DNA of 64,000 nucleotides, from positions 34,240 to 98,239 of the IMG/VR virus record IMGVR_UViG_3300021405_000009. One strand, written 5' to 3'. This DNA comes from a virus. A program made the position numbers and the translations under genes. The notes beneath the pieces were generated by a model. It had not been told where the DNA came from. It saw nothing but the letters and a program-made list of their open reading frames with translations, and searched no databases. The stretch's first letter is position 1. The number at the start of each line of letters is the position of its first letter. Below are positions 3,892-55,158 of the stretch, in pieces.

Positions 3892-4280
3892 CTTTACTTA
3901 AAATCCTTCTGAAGGCCGCGTCTGTACGCTACCGCACAATTTCACTTGACACGGCAGAGTACAGTCAAAGTTATCCATGCCGTAGAACCAGCCTGACGGA
4001 GTGGATCTGGGCTCCCGCACTCGCTCGGTCATAGAGGTTGGCTCCTCTACAAAAACCCTGGGGGCGGGAGTCCTTAATTTCGATGAAAGAAAAAAGTGAA
4101 CGCTTAGATGCACTGCGCGAGATGGAGCGGCACGGGGCATCGAAGCTAGCGATCGCGGCCATGCGGGCCGAGATGGAACGCGGGCGAAAATCAGGCCGGG
4201 CGGTGGTGAAGAAAAAACCGAGGAAACGGTAGGAGCCCCGCGACTATTACGGGAGCTGTTCTGACTTTCACAGATTTACA

Positions 4281-4376
4281 TCGCGGACAAGGGATGCGGC
4301 TGGAATTTGCAGGAGTCGAACCTGCGACGCTTTTTGAGCGTTTCATCAGGATAACCAGCTCACTTCGGCCCGCGAA
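4281..4376 (-). ncRNA. Y-RNA-like (Yrl) RNA, remote copy carrying a T-arm
   Basis: Minus strand: TCGCG-GGCCGAA-GTGAGCTG-GTTATC-...-GCAGG TTCGACT CCTGC-...-CCAGCCGC-ATCC-CTTGTC-CGCGA; same scaffold as the 53.6-54.3 kb array. Confidence 0.8.
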
Positions 4377-5850: not shown

Positions 5851-6300
5851 ATGAAATCGATGAAGGCCCGCGTGCTCGCTGCCTGCGACTGCTGCGGCGA
5901 TCTCGACGTGAGGCACCCGATCACCGGCAAGCGCGAACGGCTGGAGAGTCGTAGCCCTAAGCTCGCCGCCAACCTCATGGCCAGACTGGCTCGACGTGAG
6001 CCGGTCGAAATCAGCGTGACGATCGGCGAGACCGTCGAAGAGTGCGTGCAGGCTCACCTGAACTTTGTCGGCCAACTGGCCGCTCAGCTAGGGCAGCGCT
6101 TCGTGCCGGAGTACTCTGCGGCTAAGGAACTTGCTCAACAGACCGGGCTCGGATATGTCAACCTGAACGAAGGCTACGACCAGTGGCTGCTGAAGACGCT
6201 GCAGGCCAACCTGGGCGATATCGAGGGCAAGATTGCCGAAGCACTGGAGGCCGGGGTCATGCCGATCATCCACTGGGATGTGGATGAGGAGACGAACTGA
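5851..6300 (+). CDS. Hypothetical phage protein
   Basis: ATGA coupling with 5645-5854 and a 1-nt TGATG overlap with 6300-6557. Confidence 0.6.
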   Translation: MKSMKARVLAACDCCGDLDVRHPITGKRERLESRSPKLAANLMARLARREPVEISVTIGETVEECVQAHLNFVGQLAAQLGQRFVPEYSAAKELAQQTGLGYVNLNEGYDQWLLKTLQANLGDIEGKIAEALEAGVMPIIHWDVDEETN

Positions 6301-51720: not shown

Positions 51721-53313
51721 ATGCGATATCTCATTCACCGCGCAGTAGCGATCGGTAACCCGCCCCAGAGTCAGCCGCTGAACGACCGTCAGTCGAAAAA
51801 CAGCGCTGGCGGTTACAGTTTCACTCTGGATAAGTGGGGCAAGCTCGACCGTTTTCTCATCCTAGGCAGCGAAGGTGGCAGTTACTATGCCAGCGAGCAG
51901 AAGCTTACCGAGGAGAATGCCACCAATCTGGCAGCGTGTGTGAAGGAAGATGGCATTAAGGTGGTCAAGCGCATCGTCGAGATCAGCGATGCGGGCCGGG
52001 CTCCGAAGAACGACCCGGCGCTGTTCGCTCTGGCTTACGCCTCGGCGAAGGGCGACGACGACACGCGTAGTGCGGCTCTGGCTGCACTGCCCAAGGTCGC
52101 ACGCATCGGCACGCATCTGTTCCACTTCACCGCCTTCGTCAACACCATGCGAGGCTGGGGCCGTGGACTGCGGAAGGCCGTAGGTAACTGGTATGCCCAA
52201 GCTGGCGAAGAAGATTGGGATCGCCTGGCCGAGCAGGTCACAAAGTACCAACAGCGTGAGGGCTGGAGCCACCGCGATCTACTGCGCCTGGCGCACCCCA
52301 AGCCGACCTGCCGTCCGCACCAGGCAATCGCTAAGTGGGTAGTCAAGGGCGGAGAGTTGAACCAGACCGCGCCCGAGAAGTTGGTGGGCCACGTTGAACT
52401 GCAAGAGGCCACGACGCCGAAGCAGGCCGTGAAGCTCATCACCAAGTACGGGCTCGTGCGCGAGTCCGTGCCCACTGAACTGCTGAAGTCTCCTGAGGTA
52501 TGGGAGGCCCTGCTCGCGCGGATGCCCATGACGGCGATGATTCGCAACCTGGGCAACCTGTCGAAGTGCGGGTTGCTGACTCCATTGAGCGAAGCCTCGA
52601 AGATGGTAGTCGAGCGGCTGAGCGAGGAAGCGCTGCTGAAGAAGGCGCGCGTACATCCGATTCAACTCTTGATCGCGCAAAAGACTTACGGCTCCGGCCA
52701 TGGCAACAAAGGCAAAGGCGAATGGACGCCCGTGCCCCAGGTAGTTGACGCATTAGACGGCGCTTTCTACTCAGCCTTCCAGAACATTATCCCGTCAGGC
52801 AAGCGCTTCTACCTGGGGCTCGATGTGTCGGGCTCGATGTCCTGCGGCGAAGTAGCCGGAGTCAACGACTTCACGCCTCGCGAGGCATCGTCCGCCATGG
52901 CCATGGTCACGGCGCGCAGCGAGCAGAACTACTACGTCGCTGGCTTCCAGGAGCGCATGATCCAGCTCATGATTACGCCGAAGTCGCGGCTCGATCAGAT
53001 CTGCTCTGCTACGGCGAAGCTGCCGTTCGGCTCTACCGATTGCGCCCAGCCCATGCTGGACGCGCTGGCAAAGAAGTTGCCGGTGGACGTGTTCGCGATC
53101 TACACCGACTCCGAGACCTGGAGTGGAACAACGCACCCAACCGTGGCCCTGGAGCGCTACCGCCAGCAGACTGGCATCCCGGCGAAGTTGATTGTCGTCG
53201 GCATGGTGGCCAATCCGTTCACGATCGCCGATCCGAACGATGCTGGCATGTTGGACGTGGTCGGATTCGATTCAGCGACGCCGCAGATCATCTCACAGTT
53301 CGCGGAGGCGTAG
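51721..53313 (+). CDS. rsr: Ro60/Rsr TROVE-domain RNA-binding protein
   Basis: NSAGGY, RFLILGSEGGSYY, GRAPKNDPALFAL, GWGRGLRKAV, KYQQREGWSHRDLLRLAHP, MPMTAMIRNL, RVHP, vWA DVSGSM, TDSETW, DAGMLDVVGFD. Confidence 0.95.
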   Translation: MRYLIHRAVAIGNPPQSQPLNDRQSKNSAGGYSFTLDKWGKLDRFLILGSEGGSYYASEQKLTEENATNLAACVKEDGIKVVKRIVEISDAGRAPKNDPALFALAYASAKGDDDTRSAALAALPKVARIGTHLFHFTAFVNTMRGWGRGLRKAVGNWYAQAGEEDWDRLAEQVTKYQQREGWSHRDLLRLAHPKPTCRPHQAIAKWVVKGGELNQTAPEKLVGHVELQEATTPKQAVKLITKYGLVRESVPTELLKSPEVWEALLARMPMTAMIRNLGNLSKCGLLTPLSEASKMVVERLSEEALLKKARVHPIQLLIAQKTYGSGHGNKGKGEWTPVPQVVDALDGAFYSAFQNIIPSGKRFYLGLDVSGSMSCGEVAGVNDFTPREASSAMAMVTARSEQNYYVAGFQERMIQLMITPKSRLDQICSATAKLPFGSTDCAQPMLDALAKKLPVDVFAIYTDSETWSGTTHPTVALERYRQQTGIPAKLIVVGMVANPFTIADPNDAGMLDVVGFDSATPQIISQFAEA

Positions 53314-53578: not shown

Positions 53579-53648
53579 TGACGGGCCGATAGCAGATCGT
53601 TATCATATGCTTGAAAAACAATTACGGTCTGCGACAACTTGTCCGTCA
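53579..53648 (+). ncRNA. Y-RNA-like unit A (short)
   Basis: TGACG-GGCCGAT-A-GCAGATC-GTTATC-loop-CGGTCTGC-GACAA-CTTGTC-CGTCA. Confidence 0.75.
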
Positions 53649-53657
53649 CCTACTTAC

Positions 53658-53729
53658 ACCGTTGGGCCGCAGTTGGTTCGTTACCTACATTGATTGGAAT
53701 ATACGGACCGACACATTTTGTCTAACGGT
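53658..53729 (+). ncRNA. Y-RNA-like unit B (short)
   Basis: ACCGTTG-GGCCGCA-GTTGGTTC-GTTACC-loop-CGGACCGAC-ACAT-TTTGTC-TAACGGT. Confidence 0.7.
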
Positions 53730-53737
53730 AAATATAT

Positions 53738-53878
53738 GCGAGGGCCGAAGAGAATTGGTTATCCTCCACCTAAGCCGTACCGGGGGAGTAGCTCAATGGT
53801 AGAGCGCCGGACCTGATCAATCCGGAGGTTGCTGGTTCAAGTCCAGTCTCCATACCGATTCTCGTACCTTGTCTTCGC
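53738..53878 (+). ncRNA. Y-RNA-like unit C enclosing a non-permuted tRNA-like fold
   Basis: GCGAG-GGCCGAA-GAGAATTG-GTTATC...[D arm GCTC/GAGC, anticodon arm CCGGA/TCCGG, T arm GCTGG TTCAAGT CCAGT]...CCGATTCTC-GTAC-CTTGTC-TTCGC. Confidence 0.85.
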
Positions 53879-53887
53879 TTCATTTCT

Positions 53888-53952
53888 GCGAGGGTCGAAG
53901 TCGGTCTGTTATCACAATGCAAACAGAGACGGACCGCGTAACTTATCTTCGC
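53888..53952 (+). ncRNA. Y-RNA-like unit D (short)
   Basis: GCGAG-GGTCGAA-GTCGGTCT-GTTATC-loop-CGGACCGC-GTAA-CTTATC-TTCGC. Confidence 0.8.
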
Positions 53953-53971
53953 TTCATGTTTCACTTGTAAG

Positions 53972-54110
53972 TGCGAGGGCCGAAGCTAGCTGGTTATCTT
54001 GGAACTCTATGTCGTTGGTTCGATTCCAACCGTCCTGGTTCTCCAGGCGTAGTTCAGTGGTAGAACAAGAGTGGCGAAAGCCATTTCCGGCTACATCACT
54101 TGTCTTCGCA
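53972..54110 (+). ncRNA. YrlA-type Y RNA unit E (circularly permuted tRNA mimic)
   Basis: Scaffold plus ACTCT..T arm GTTGG TTCGATT CCAAC, closed acceptor CCTGG-ttct-CCAGG, D arm GTTC AGTGGTA GAAC, AGAGT, and an extra TGGC-GAAA-GCCA hairpin. Confidence 0.9.
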
Positions 54111-54158
54111 TGAAATCCCTGGCCGGGTACTATCTGAGGCATCCGGCCAGTAAAACAG

Positions 54159-54303
54159 AAAGAGAGCGGGCCGAAAGCTGGTTGGTTATCTACTGCTAAT
54201 AGAGAGGTCGCGGGTTCGAGTCCCGCTGGCACCTTCGGGTGCTATAGCTCAGTTGGCTAGAGCGCTAAAACACCGATTGGCATAGAACTTGTCCGCTCTC
54301 TTT
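54159..54303 (+). ncRNA. YrlA-type Y RNA unit F (permuted tRNA mimic retaining an anticodon hairpin)
   Basis: AAAGAGAGCG-GGCCGAA..GTTATC; TCTA CTGCTAA TAGA; T arm GCGGG TTCGAGT CCCGC; acceptor TGGCACC TTCG GGTGCTA; D arm GCTC AGTTGGCTA GAGC; CTTGTC-CGCTCTCTTT followed by a T-tract. Confidence 0.9.
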
Positions 54304-54342: not shown

Positions 54343-55158
54343 ATGCCAACTCTCTGCTTTGTCGGCGACGTGCATGGAAACTTAACGCAGATGTACGCCG
54401 CTCTGATGGCGTGGATGGAGCGTAGTTACACTAAGATCGATGCCGTCGTTCAGGTTGGCGATCTCGGCGTATACCGCCGTGGTACCACCTGGTCTTCCAT
54501 GTTCTTCAAGGGCGTGCCCTCGCCGATCCCGACCTGGGCCTGCATGGGCAACCATGAAGATCCGCTCGCGATCCGCGACTGGCAGAACGAGCCCGACCGA
54601 ATTCCTAACATGCACCTGATGCCGGATGGCGAGATCACCAGCGTTCTCGGCGTCCAGATCGGCGTTGTGTGGGGCAACTACAGCCCGATTAGTTGGCTTG
54701 ATCCTGGCCGTGTACACAAGGCGCGCGCTGTGGGCGGCGAGTCCGCGCGGATCGCTATGCACATCGACCACGCTGCTGTTACCCGCCTGATGGATTTATA
54801 CCAGCGCTGCGGCGATCACATGGATGTGCTAGTCACGCATGACTCTGCGGCGTCCACACTGCCGGTACAGTTTCGCGGCAAGGGCATGGACTCCTTCATC
54901 AAAGGGCAGCTCGGCCTTACTGATAACGAAGAGTCTGGCGGCTGCCACGGCTTCAACTCGCTGCTCAAGGCATTTCAGCCCGATGAATATTTCTTTGGCC
55001 ACCTGCACTGTTATGACGAAGGCATGATTGGCCGCACGCATTACACCTGCCTGAACGCGATCGGCTACGAAGGTGGCCCGTGGTTCAAGGTGATGGAGTT
55101 CCCAGACGTGGCGGGGCCGCTGTCTGGGGGTATCAACATTCTCGGGGGAGGTTCTTAA
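54343..55158 (+). CDS. Calcineurin-like metallophosphoesterase
   Basis: GDVHG, VGDLG, GNHE, THD, GHLH motifs. Confidence 0.9.
   Translation: MPTLCFVGDVHGNLTQMYAALMAWMERSYTKIDAVVQVGDLGVYRRGTTWSSMFFKGVPSPIPTWACMGNHEDPLAIRDWQNEPDRIPNMHLMPDGEITSVLGVQIGVVWGNYSPISWLDPGRVHKARAVGGESARIAMHIDHAAVTRLMDLYQRCGDHMDVLVTHDSAASTLPVQFRGKGMDSFIKGQLGLTDNEESGGCHGFNSLLKAFQPDEYFFGHLHCYDEGMIGRTHYTCLNAIGYEGGPWFKVMEFPDVAGPLSGGINILGGGS

What the first reader, a model, noticed from the sequence alone, without database searches (positions are those of the whole stretch)
53738..53878. Y-RNA scaffold enclosing a complete, non-permuted tRNA-like gene with a 9-nt anticodon loop
Seen: 53782-53854 reads GGGGGAG-TA-GCTC AATGGTA GAGC-G-CCGGA CCTGATCAA TCCGG-AGGTT-GCTGG TTCAAGT CCAGT-CTCCATA. 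This is normal D-anticodon-T order with only about 4 clean acceptor pairs, no CCA and an enlarged loop (CU-GAU(C)-AA-like), all inserted into the scaffold loop. An upstream CTCC (about 53764) could compete for the GGAG strand. Inference: a snapshot of how tRNA genes are captured as Y-RNA cargo, and a different topology from YrlA.
Basis: seen in the sequence. Interest (0 to 1): 0.7.

Follow-up and report, generated by a model that had tools for sequence, protein, structure and literature searches.

The report
Phage Y RNA with re-wired tRNA mimic
The tRNA look-alike is real and sits inside a Ro60-binding "Y RNA" of an uncultured phage, but it is not a captured normal tRNA. It belongs to a recurring, apparently undescribed subclass of Y RNAs in which the tRNA shape is closed at its acceptor end and opened in the acceptor 3' strand.

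Summary
Window 53738-53878 is one RNA unit. A Ro60-type terminal stem and a perfect 10-bp inner stem enclose D, "anticodon" and T arms in normal order. ARAGORN calls 53782-53856 tRNA-Ile(GAT), and Rfam tRNA scores 46.9 bits over model positions 4-67 only.

- I found 14 further units of this architecture, about 12 lineages with the window's, in viral and metagenomic contigs. Rsr (Ro60) lies in the fetched DNA of every distinct unit with enough flank.
All 5 of these pairs show compensatory changes, and 97% of cells are paired.
- The normal acceptor pairing holds for only 2-3 proximal pairs. Hairpin plus proximal pairs sum to 7 bp.
- The capping loop starts with N-CCA in six units; the window has ACCU.
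- The Levitt pair 15:48 covaries in 15 of 15 units. The "anticodon" loop is 4-10 nt and is not conserved.

The module is therefore a circularly permuted, non-decoding tRNA mimic opened in the acceptor 3' strand. This differs from YrlA, which opens at the anticodon loop, and from Yrn1.

I rate it a new variant of a known kind. The function (a tether or decoy for tRNA-binding factors, possibly cut by RNase P) is inferred. Earlier notes of this scan report other Y-RNA topologies on other DNA, but none describes this one.

The parts
51721..53313 (+). Rsr / Ro60 orthologue gene (530 aa)
   Evidence: Pfam TROVE E=1.4e-43 and vWA_Ro60 E=3.8e-63. TROVE is the only such match in the 98-kb virus record.
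53579..54303 (+). Array of six Y-RNA-like units: about 53579-53648, 53658-53729, 53738-53878, 53888-53952, 53972-54110 and 54159-54303. Each has terminal stem / GG(C/T)CG(A/C)A / inner stem / G(G)TTAYC ... YTT(G/A)TC / terminal stem.
   Evidence: Motif and stem scan, folds, and sub-threshold YrlA matches for units 5 and 6 at 35.4 and 41.2 bits.
53738..53878 (+). Unit Y3, the whole RNA of this finding (141 nt)
   Evidence: R1 covariance model 116.2 bits and R2 117.3 bits over the full model length. This unit was a training sequence. Structure checked pair by pair.
53738..53750 (+). 5' strand of terminal stem (GCGAG) plus Ro60-binding motif GGCCGAAG (GNCGAAN0-1G; C at 53746 bulged)
   Evidence: Pairs with 53868-53878. 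Motif as defined in PMC4201824. Helix 1 has 8 of 10 pairs with compensatory changes in the family.
53750..53759 (+). Inner stem 5' strand GAGAATTGGT. It overlaps the GGTTATC box (53757-53763) that all Y units share.
   Evidence: 10 of 10 pairs with 53854-53863. Helix 2 has 7 of 10 pairs with compensatory changes.
53763..53767 (+). CCTCC, equivalent to acceptor 3'-strand positions 68-72. It is the upstream partner of tRNA-like positions 1-5.
   Evidence: Helix 3 on alignment A4 has 5 of 5 pairs with compensatory changes and 97.3% of cells paired.
53768..53781 (+). Capping loop ACCTAAGCCGTACC. It starts with ACC-U where six relatives have N-CCA.
   Evidence: Loop list; parses.
53782..53788 (+). 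GGGGG-AG, tRNA-like positions 1-7. Positions 1-5 close the hairpin; positions 6-7 pair with CT at 53848-53849.
   Evidence: Hairpin plus proximal pairs total 7 bp.
53789..53806 (+). U8 A9, D arm GCTC-AATGGTA-GAGC, G26
   Evidence: Rfam tRNA alignment. A15 pairs with U48, and this Levitt pair covaries in 15 of 15 units.
53807..53825 (+). 'Anticodon' arm CCGGA-CCTGATCAA-TCCGG (5-bp stem, 9-nt loop)
   Evidence: The stem has 5 of 5 pairs with compensatory changes. The loop is 4-10 nt and unconserved in relatives.
53826..53849 (+). Variable region AGGTT, T arm GCTGG-TTCAAGT-CCAGT, and CT (positions 66-67)
53850..53878 (+). Linker CCAT, inner stem 3' strand ACCGATTCTC, GTAC, CTTGTC (3' strand of the Ro helix), and terminal stem TTCGC

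Best explanation
Y3 is one of six Y RNAs that this phage encodes directly after its Ro60 (Rsr) gene. Its terminal stem carries the Ro60-binding motif. Its far end is a four-arm tRNA mimic built as a circular permutation.

The chain runs as follows:
- It enters from the Y stem as the distal acceptor 3' strand (CCUCC).
- It turns in a capping loop that begins ACC-U (N-CCA in relatives).
- It returns as positions 1-7 and runs through the D arm, a 5-bp 'anticodon' stem-loop, the variable region and the T arm.
- It leaves for the Y stem after positions 66-67.

The 5-bp hairpin stacks on the 2 proximal pairs. Together they give a 7-bp acceptor-like helix with a nick-like three-way junction in its 3' strand.

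What is shown (comparatively):
- the fold;
- the 7-bp rule;
- the 15:48 tertiary pair;
- linkage to Rsr.

What is inferred:
- the RNA binds Rsr through the stem;
- it presents an L-shaped tRNA decoy or handle to tRNA-recognising proteins, as YrlA does for TruB, DusA and RNase P;
- it thereby tethers Rsr to a partner such as PNPase, or titrates a tRNA-directed factor during infection;
- it does not decode.

A further inferred step, less likely for this copy than for the N-CCA relatives, is cleavage by RNase P in the capping loop, as shown for M. smegmatis YrlA.
For: - Adjacent Rsr gene on the same strand.
- GGCCGAAG / CTTGTC bulged helix and a perfect 10-bp inner stem.
- tRNA signals from ARAGORN and Rfam.
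- 14 further units of the same architecture in IMG/VR and JGI contigs, 45-66% identical to each other apart from two close groups.
- Covariation on alignment A4: 28 of 41 pairs have double changes, 86% of cells are paired against 36-50% for slid controls, and 0 of 500 shuffles reach the observed values. The upstream hairpin and the AC stem each have 5 of 5 compensatory pairs.
- The alternative normal acceptor fails beyond 2-3 pairs.
- Hairpin plus proximal pairs equal 7 as 5+2, 4+3 or 7+0 in 13 of the 15 aligned units: 10 by the automatic parse, L068 by identity with L064/L083 there, and L051 and L073 on my manual re-read (the parse mis-anchored L051 and gave 8 for L073). L052 parses as 8, or 7 if its GCCA loop is kept, and L075 as 5.
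- N-CCA opens the capping loop in L052, L028, L005, L073, L074 and L077, on stems of different sequence. Chance is 1/64 per unit.
- The 15:48 pair is A:U in three lineages and G:C in the rest, 15 of 15.
- Rsr lies within the fetched DNA for the window, L005, L028, L046, L051, L052, L063 and L077.
- Literature: YrlA is a permuted tRNA mimic modified by TruB and DusA; M. smegmatis YrlA is cut by RNase P and receives CCA (PMC4201824; 10.1101/312249). A phage Ro60 with Y-like RNAs binds host PNPase (PMC12135203).
Against: - No transcript, Rsr-binding or processing data exist for any member.
- In the window copy alone, hairpin and normal acceptor pairings have equal computed energy. A 4-bp normal acceptor is possible, so this copy could flip between them.
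- D-arm and Y-motif invariance in the family is partly imposed by my search patterns.
- A4 is fitted to the model's structure, which favours that structure in the counts.
- Seven units (L064, L068, L083, L072, L073, L074, L075) lie on short contigs with no Rsr in the fetched part.
- Y-stem helices are only 73-78% paired in A4.
Confidence: 0.72

Rival explanations
1. A normal-topology tRNA or pseudo-tRNA (a former tRNA-Ile GAU) was inserted into the loop of a Y RNA. Its own 5' and 3' acceptor strands pair with each other, and the upstream CCUCC is an incidental competitor.
For: - ARAGORN calls tRNA-Ile(GAT), and Rfam tRNA scores 46.9 bits, above its gathering score.
- Four Watson-Crick pairs plus one G-U are possible in the normal acceptor.
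- The computed energy equals that of the hairpin form.
- The loop contains CU-GAU..AA.
- True tRNAs do occur inside Y arrays, for example tRNA-Asn between units in L013, and tRNA-Asp between Yrn2 and Yrn1 in D. radiodurans (PMC4201824).
Against: - In relatives, normal pairing of positions 1-4 fails (0-5 of 12 paired), while the upstream hairpin covaries at all 5 pairs.
- The Rfam match is local, positions 4-67.
- There is no discriminator-CCA after the 3' strand.
- The anticodon loop is 9 nt here and 4-10 nt in relatives.
- No relative has an intact tRNA-Ile at this place.
Confidence: 0.1
2. A processing variant of the main reading. RNase P cuts the capping loop 5' of position 1, and the loop is trimmed back to N-CCA. 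The result is a two-piece Y RNA, held together by the Y stems, that exposes a genuine tRNA-type acceptor end. That end could be repaired by the CCA-adding enzyme or even charged.
For: - A 7-bp acceptor-like stack on a T arm is the main RNase P determinant. M. smegmatis YrlA, with a 7-bp capped acceptor, is cleaved by RNase P and receives CCA in vivo (PMC4201824).
- N-CCA directly follows the acceptor 3' strand in 6 units with different stems.
I did not check this.
Against: - The window copy has ACCU, not ACCA. Five other lineages lack CCA altogether.
- The acceptor helix is interrupted by a three-way junction, and its effect on RNase P is unknown.
- S. Typhimurium YrlA and Yrn1 are not cleaved (PMC4201824).
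- There are no experimental data.
Confidence: 0.2
3. The resemblance is incidental. The stretch is two unrelated elements, a degenerate tRNA gene flanked by halves of neighbouring Y repeats, with no joint function.
For: - In repeat arrays, neighbouring units can cross-pair in silico, as seen around tRNA-Asn in L013.
- The z-score of the Y3 fold is modest, -2.18.
Against: - The 10-bp inner stem is unique to Y3 and perfect.
- The same enclosure recurs in about 12 diverged lineages, with covarying inner and outer stems.
Confidence: 0.03

Closest known systems
YrlA RNAs (Rfam RF02553; Chen et al. 2014, PMC4201824; crystal structure in Wang et al. 2018, bioRxiv 10.1101/312249)
   Same: - Encoded next to rsr on the same strand.
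- Terminal stem with the GNCGAAN0-1G motif.
- Effector module is a circularly permuted tRNA mimic with a loop-capped acceptor stem.
- tRNA-like D and T arms and a covarying 15:48 pair.
- Units 5 and 6 of the same array are of this general kind.
   Different: - YrlA order is T arm, then capped acceptor, then D arm. The Y stem takes the place of the anticodon stem and there is no anticodon loop.
- Here the order is capped acceptor, D, complete 'anticodon' stem-loop, T. The Y stem leaves from the acceptor 3' strand, between positions 67 and 68.
- The Rfam YrlA model scores 17.7 bits against a gathering score of 69, and is misaligned.
Deinococcus radiodurans Yrn1 (Chen et al. 2000, 2013, 2014)
   Same: - A Y RNA whose effector end is read as D-like, then an 'anticodon' arm with a 5-bp stem, then a T arm. 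This is the opposite order to YrlA (PMC4201824).
- It is co-transcribed with other Y RNAs.
   Different: - Yrn1 has no full D arm, no variable region, a 6-nt loop and no dihydrouridine, and no capped 7-bp acceptor hairpin is described (PMC4201824; 10.1101/312249).
- I could not obtain the Yrn1 sequence, so I made no direct alignment.
Mycobacterium smegmatis YrlA
   Same: It has a 7-bp capped acceptor stem. It is cleaved by RNase P in the cap and the upstream fragment acquires CCA (PMC4201824). This is a precedent for the N-CCA-lined caps seen here.
   Different: It has YrlA connectivity. The CCA is added after cleavage rather than encoded in the loop.
Circularly permuted tRNA genes of Cyanidioschyzon merolae and some archaea (Soma et al. 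2007, as cited in 10.1101/312249)
   Same: The acceptor 3' strand and CCA region lie upstream of position 1 and are joined to it by a linker.
   Different: Those are precursors of decoding tRNAs, processed through a circular intermediate by the splicing endonuclease. Here there is a Ro60-binding stem, no usable anticodon loop across the family, and no such enzyme known in bacteria.
Canonical phage tRNA genes
   Same: D arm, T arm, variable region and U8/A14/G18G19/T54-C56 signature. ARAGORN and Rfam both report a tRNA.
   Different: There is no 7-bp acceptor formed by the two ends and no 3' discriminator-CCA. The loop is 9 nt. The element is enclosed in about 20 bp of Y stem.

Membership tests
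Y RNA (Ro60/Rsr-associated ncRNA) | Encoded close to, and on the same strand as, the Ro60 orthologue | tested here: met
   Rsr is at 51721-53313 (+). Y3 starts 425 nt downstream on the same strand. Rsr is also found beside 7 distinct relatives of Y3.
Y RNA (Ro60/Rsr-associated ncRNA) | Long stem formed by the 5' and 3' ends that carries the Ro60 site (GNCGAAN0-1G, a bulged helix like GGUCCGA / UUGAC) | tested here: met
   GCGAG-GGC(C)GA-AG pairs with C-TT-GTC-TTCGC. Helix 1 covaries in the family at 8 of 10 pairs.
Y RNA (Ro60/Rsr-associated ncRNA) | Bound and stabilised by Ro60/Rsr | not testable with these tools
   This needs co-immunoprecipitation or EMSA.
YrlA (RF02553) | Module order T arm, capped acceptor, D arm, with the Y stem continuing the anticodon stem and no anticodon loop | tested here: not met
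   The order here is capped acceptor, D, AC stem-loop, T. cmscan gives 17.7 bits against a gathering score of 69, with a wrong alignment.
YrlA (RF02553) | tRNA-like D and T arms with tertiary pairs, including a covarying Levitt pair 15:48 | tested here: met
   A15:U48 or G15:C48 in 15 of 15 units. The D and T arms match the Rfam tRNA consensus.
Canonical tRNA | 7-bp acceptor stem formed by the 5' end and the 3' end, followed by discriminator and CCA | tested here: not met
   The window has 4 Watson-Crick pairs plus 1 G-U. In the family, positions 1-4 are mostly unpaired with the downstream strand. The sequence after the 3' strand is CCATACC, with no CCA at position 74-76.
Canonical tRNA | 7-nt anticodon loop with U33 and a purine at 37 | tested here: not met
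   The loop here is 9 nt, CCTGATCAA. Relatives have 4-10 nt, including the GCAA tetraloop.
Yrn1-type Y RNA (D. radiodurans) | Effector domain with D-like, AC and T stem-loops in that order | tested here: inconclusive
   The order agrees with the published description (PMC4201824). No Yrn1 sequence was available to align, and Yrn1 lacks the full D arm, variable region and capped acceptor described here.
Permuted tRNA gene (precursor of a functional tRNA) | Processed to a mature decoding tRNA with a proper anticodon | tested here: inconclusive
   The permutation geometry fits, with the 3' strand plus N-CCA lying upstream. Loop length and sequence are not conserved. Processing cannot be tested here.

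The most novel reading that the evidence does not exclude
These RNAs are cut by RNase P in the N-CCA-lined cap. They then become two-piece Ro60-bound particles that display a genuine tRNA acceptor end. That end could be recognised by the CCA-adding enzyme or by an anticodon-independent synthetase, or used as bait for host tRNA-directed defence nucleases. One phage would then deploy a set of differently oriented tRNA decoys (Y3, Y5, Y6) on Ro60.
Probability: 0.15. Interest if true: 0.8.

Novelty: new variant of a known kind. Interest (0 to 1): 0.52.

Why it matters
Bacterial and phage Y RNAs are known to mimic tRNA, but the function of the mimic is an open question.

This subclass shows that the same tRNA 'ring' (capped acceptor, D, anticodon arm, T) can be attached to the Ro60-binding stem at more than one point. 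In this single phage array it is attached in the acceptor 3' strand (Y3), at the anticodon loop (Y5), and between the D and anticodon arms (Y6).

This suggests that selection acts on the L-shaped body and its acceptor/CCA end, not on any one connectivity. It also gives natural variants that hold the tRNA mimic in different orientations relative to Ro60, which helps in finding the partner.

The N-CCA-lined caps make the RNase P and CCA-processing idea, raised for M. smegmatis YrlA, directly testable in phages. The covariance models built here would also let annotators stop calling these elements tRNA genes; ARAGORN reports this one as tRNA-Ile.

Tried and rejected
- Rfam at gathering and at E-value thresholds gave only tRNA, plus a spurious YrlA alignment for Y3.
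- blastn against GenBank phages found only generic tRNA similarity: tRNA-Ile and tRNA-Asn, 83-86% over about 60 nt, and no homologous unit.
- The two closest Rsr relatives (L002 and L003, 64% identical) have Y arrays but no Y3-type unit.
- The pattern with a 3-nt D-loop spacer returned only ordinary tRNAs.
- In the genome-contig scan, bacterial hits were of two kinds, neither a Y3-type unit. One kind was true tRNAs with 7-bp acceptors preceded by the Y 5' motif and with no Rsr within 8 kb; I do not count these as Y RNAs. The other was a different bipartite arrangement beside Polyangium rsr.
- Intermediate covariance-model hits at 45-65 bits were tRNA dimers or tRNAs with forced flanks, for example L017 2457-2572.
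- Thermodynamics cannot separate the two acceptor pairings in the window copy.
- The sigma-70 promoter and terminator scan gave nothing above shuffles.
- The reviews PMC10870794 and PMC6047535 were not held. Burroughs and Aravind 2016 did not turn up in the library search. I could not check whether any of these mentions this topology.
- I could not fetch the D. radiodurans Yrn1 sequence for a direct comparison.

Full report
**Setting.** The window is the last 64 kb of a 98-kb linear IMG/VR virus record, about 77% complete. The ORF at 51721-53313 (+) is an Rsr/Ro60 orthologue: TROVE E=1.4e-43 and vWA_Ro60 E=3.8e-63. Six closely spaced units follow it, from about 53579 to 54303. Each has a terminal stem, a GG(C/T)CG(A/C)A motif, an inner stem, a G(G)TTAYC box and, on the 3' side, YTT(G/A)TC plus the terminal stem. 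This is the Y-RNA signature: the GNCGAAN0-1G motif of Chen et al. 2014 (PMC4201824), which resembles the metazoan GGUCCGA site that pairs with conserved 3' residues as a bulged helix. Units 5 and 6 give sub-threshold YrlA matches of 35.4 and 41.2 bits against a gathering score of 69. A metallophosphoesterase gene follows at 54343-55158.

**Observation.**
- ARAGORN calls 53782-53856 tRNA-Ile(GAT).
- Rfam tRNA scores 46.9 bits, but only for model positions 4-67 and with two extra bases in the anticodon loop.
- The scaffold is solid. GCGAG/TTCGC continues into GGC(C)GA/TTGTC with a bulged C, followed by a perfect 10-bp inner stem GAGAATTGGT/ACCGATTCTC that no other unit of the array shares.
- The tRNA-like part therefore lies inside one Y unit, not between two.

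**Relatives.** The phage database gave only generic tRNA similarity. I then scanned IMG/VR for the Y 5' motif, the GTTAYC box and a D arm within 8-38 nt. That spacing excludes YrlA, whose D arm comes about 50 nt later. By my estimate, about 1-2 random hits were expected. The scan returned L046/L049, L051 and L052, all with closing stems and further features that were not in the pattern. A descriptor scan of 42 phage Rsr loci added L005, L028 and a hairpin-less variant, L019. A refined pattern added L063, L064/65/66/68/83, L072, L073, L074, L075 and L077 from viral and metagenome contigs.
- The 15 aligned units are 127-141 nt long and 45-66% identical to each other, apart from L046/L063 (81%) and the L064 group (98-99%). 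That makes about 12 lineages.
- Rsr lies in the fetched DNA for the window, L005, L028, L046, L051, L052, L063 and L077, and also for L019. The other units sit on 1.3-4.8-kb contigs.
- Among the 43 phage Rsr loci, model R2 finds three clear members and the L019 variant.

**Structure.** In every relative, a short hairpin lies between the GTTAYC box and the D arm. Its 3' strand is tRNA positions 1-5, or 1-4, or 1-7. Only 2, 3 or 0 proximal pairs are then made with the bases after the T arm.
- The sum is 7 bp in 13 of the 15 aligned units: 10 by the automatic parse, L068 by identity with L064/L083, and L051 and L073 on my manual re-read (the parse mis-anchored L051 and gave 8 for L073). L052 parses as 8, or 7 if its GCCA loop is kept, and L075 as 5. 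The hairpin-less L019 was left out.
- On the Infernal alignment A4 (models R1/R2), the upstream hairpin has compensatory changes at 5 of 5 pairs and 97% of cells are paired.
- The 'anticodon' stem has compensatory changes at 5 of 5 pairs and 95% paired.
- The whole structure has 28 of 41 pairs with double changes and 86% of cells paired, against 36-50% when partners are slid. No shuffle in 500 reaches the observed values.
- The alternative, in which positions 1-7 pair with the seven bases after the T arm, holds only for pairs 7:66 and 6:67 and often 5:68. Pair 3:70 is paired in 0 of 12 units, and 4:69 and 2:71 in 5 of 12 each.
- The Levitt pair covaries perfectly: A15:U48 in the window, the L064 group and L077, and G15:C48 elsewhere, 15 of 15. 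This argues for a real L-shaped fold.
- In the window copy alone, the two acceptor options have equal computed energy, -39.6 versus -39.5 kcal/mol. Because CUCC is present on both sides, 5+2, 4+3 and 3+4 are all possible.

**Caveats.** D-arm and Y-motif invariance is partly imposed by my patterns, and A4 is fitted to the model's structure.

**What it is.** The module is a circular permutation of a tRNA: acceptor 3' strand, cap, positions 1-67, exit. It is not a normal-topology tRNA.
- The cap begins with N-CCA directly after the acceptor 3' strand in L052 (GCCA) and in L028, L005, L073, L074 and L077 (ACCA). These sit on stems of different sequence. The window has ACCU and the L064 group GCCU. 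Chance is 1/64 per unit.
- The 'anticodon' loop is GCAA, UAACC, CGUAG, GAUACC, several unrelated 7-mers, an 8-mer, the window's 9-mer, or, in the nearest relative L073, three more pairs and a GAUU tetraloop.
- A decoding function, and descent from an intact tRNA-Ile(GAU), are therefore unsupported.

**Comparison with the literature.**
[quoted passage not shown] They lack the anticodon loop, and the Y stem continues the anticodon stem (10.1101/312249; PMC4201824).
- D. radiodurans Yrn1 has the opposite arm order, with an 'anticodon arm', but no full D arm, no variable region and no described capped acceptor (PMC4201824).
- M. smegmatis YrlA, with a 7-bp cap, is cut by RNase P and receives CCA (PMC4201824).
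- The class found here keeps all four arms and opens in the acceptor 3' strand. I found no description of it in the papers I could search, but two reviews were not held and one genomic survey did not turn up in the library search.
- Within the window's own array, Y5 is opened at the anticodon loop and Y6 between the D and anticodon arms. One phage therefore carries three attachment points.

**Mechanism (inferred).**
- Rsr binds the terminal helix.
- The tRNA mimic serves as a handle or decoy for tRNA-recognising proteins. It tethers Rsr to a partner, such as PNPase in the Thermus phage phiLo complex (PMC12135203), or titrates a host factor.
- A Ro60-like protein of phage Bas63 counters the ppl defence system (PMC11482910).
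- Processing by RNase P at the cap is plausible for the N-CCA members and less so for this copy.

**Verdict.** This is a new variant of a known kind, of moderate interest.

Noticed in passing
window 4279-4375 (- strand): A seventh Y-RNA-like unit lies about 47 kb from rsr on the opposite strand: TCGCGGGCCGAAG..GGTTAT ... CTTGTCCGCGA. It has no tRNA-like cargo. It scores 35-39 bits with R1/R2.
   Followed up: partly
window 53972-54110 and 54159-54303: Units 5 and 6 of the same array are tRNA mimics opened at two other points. Unit 5 is opened at the anticodon loop (classical YrlA). Unit 6 is opened between the D arm and a retained anticodon hairpin with loop CUGCUAA. One array therefore holds three different permutations.
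   Followed up: partly
window 53812-53820: The 9-nt loop is CC-UGAUCA-A: a 6-nt self-complementary core flanked by 2+1 bases, the layout of kissing-loop dimerisation sites. It is not conserved in relatives, and I estimate about a 6% chance of such a palindrome, so it is probably coincidental.
   Followed up: partly
L084 5871-6059 (Polyangium sp.), also L085, L087, L090, L067: Beside bacterial rsr there is a Y 5' motif, a hairpin and a D arm. A second GGGCCGGCA..GGTTATC module then sits where the anticodon arm would be, followed by a T arm and a strand complementary to the bases before the D arm. This may be a tRNA-shaped RNA with a second Ro60 site in the anticodon position.
   Followed up: no
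L082 8129-8268 (-), L089 1902-2038 (-), L093 4425-4557 (+), L086 7001-7130 (+): True-looking tRNAs (7-bp acceptors; ACCA after the acceptor in L089 and L093 only) are preceded by GCCGRA..GGTTAYC and closed by a complementary 3' strand in MFE folds. No Rsr lies within the fetched 8 kb. It is unclear whether these are Y-like enclosures of real tRNAs or leader-trailer pairing.
   Followed up: partly
L013 5640-6140: A canonical tRNA-Asn (5985-6058) sits between Y-like units downstream of a phage rsr. This resembles the Yrn2-tRNAAsp-Yrn1 transcript of D. radiodurans.
   Followed up: partly
L046, about 500 nt upstream of its Y3-type unit (minus strand of the locus): A unit-6-type Y RNA here has a retained anticodon hairpin with the canonical tRNA-Ile loop CUGAUAA (TCTC-CTGATAA-GAGA).
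   Followed up: no
L019 3796-3922: This variant of the class lacks the capping hairpin, leaving only GG/CC of the acceptor. It shares the CGUAG loop and the TTGAC variable region with L005. ARAGORN calls it tRNA-Tyr.
   Followed up: partly
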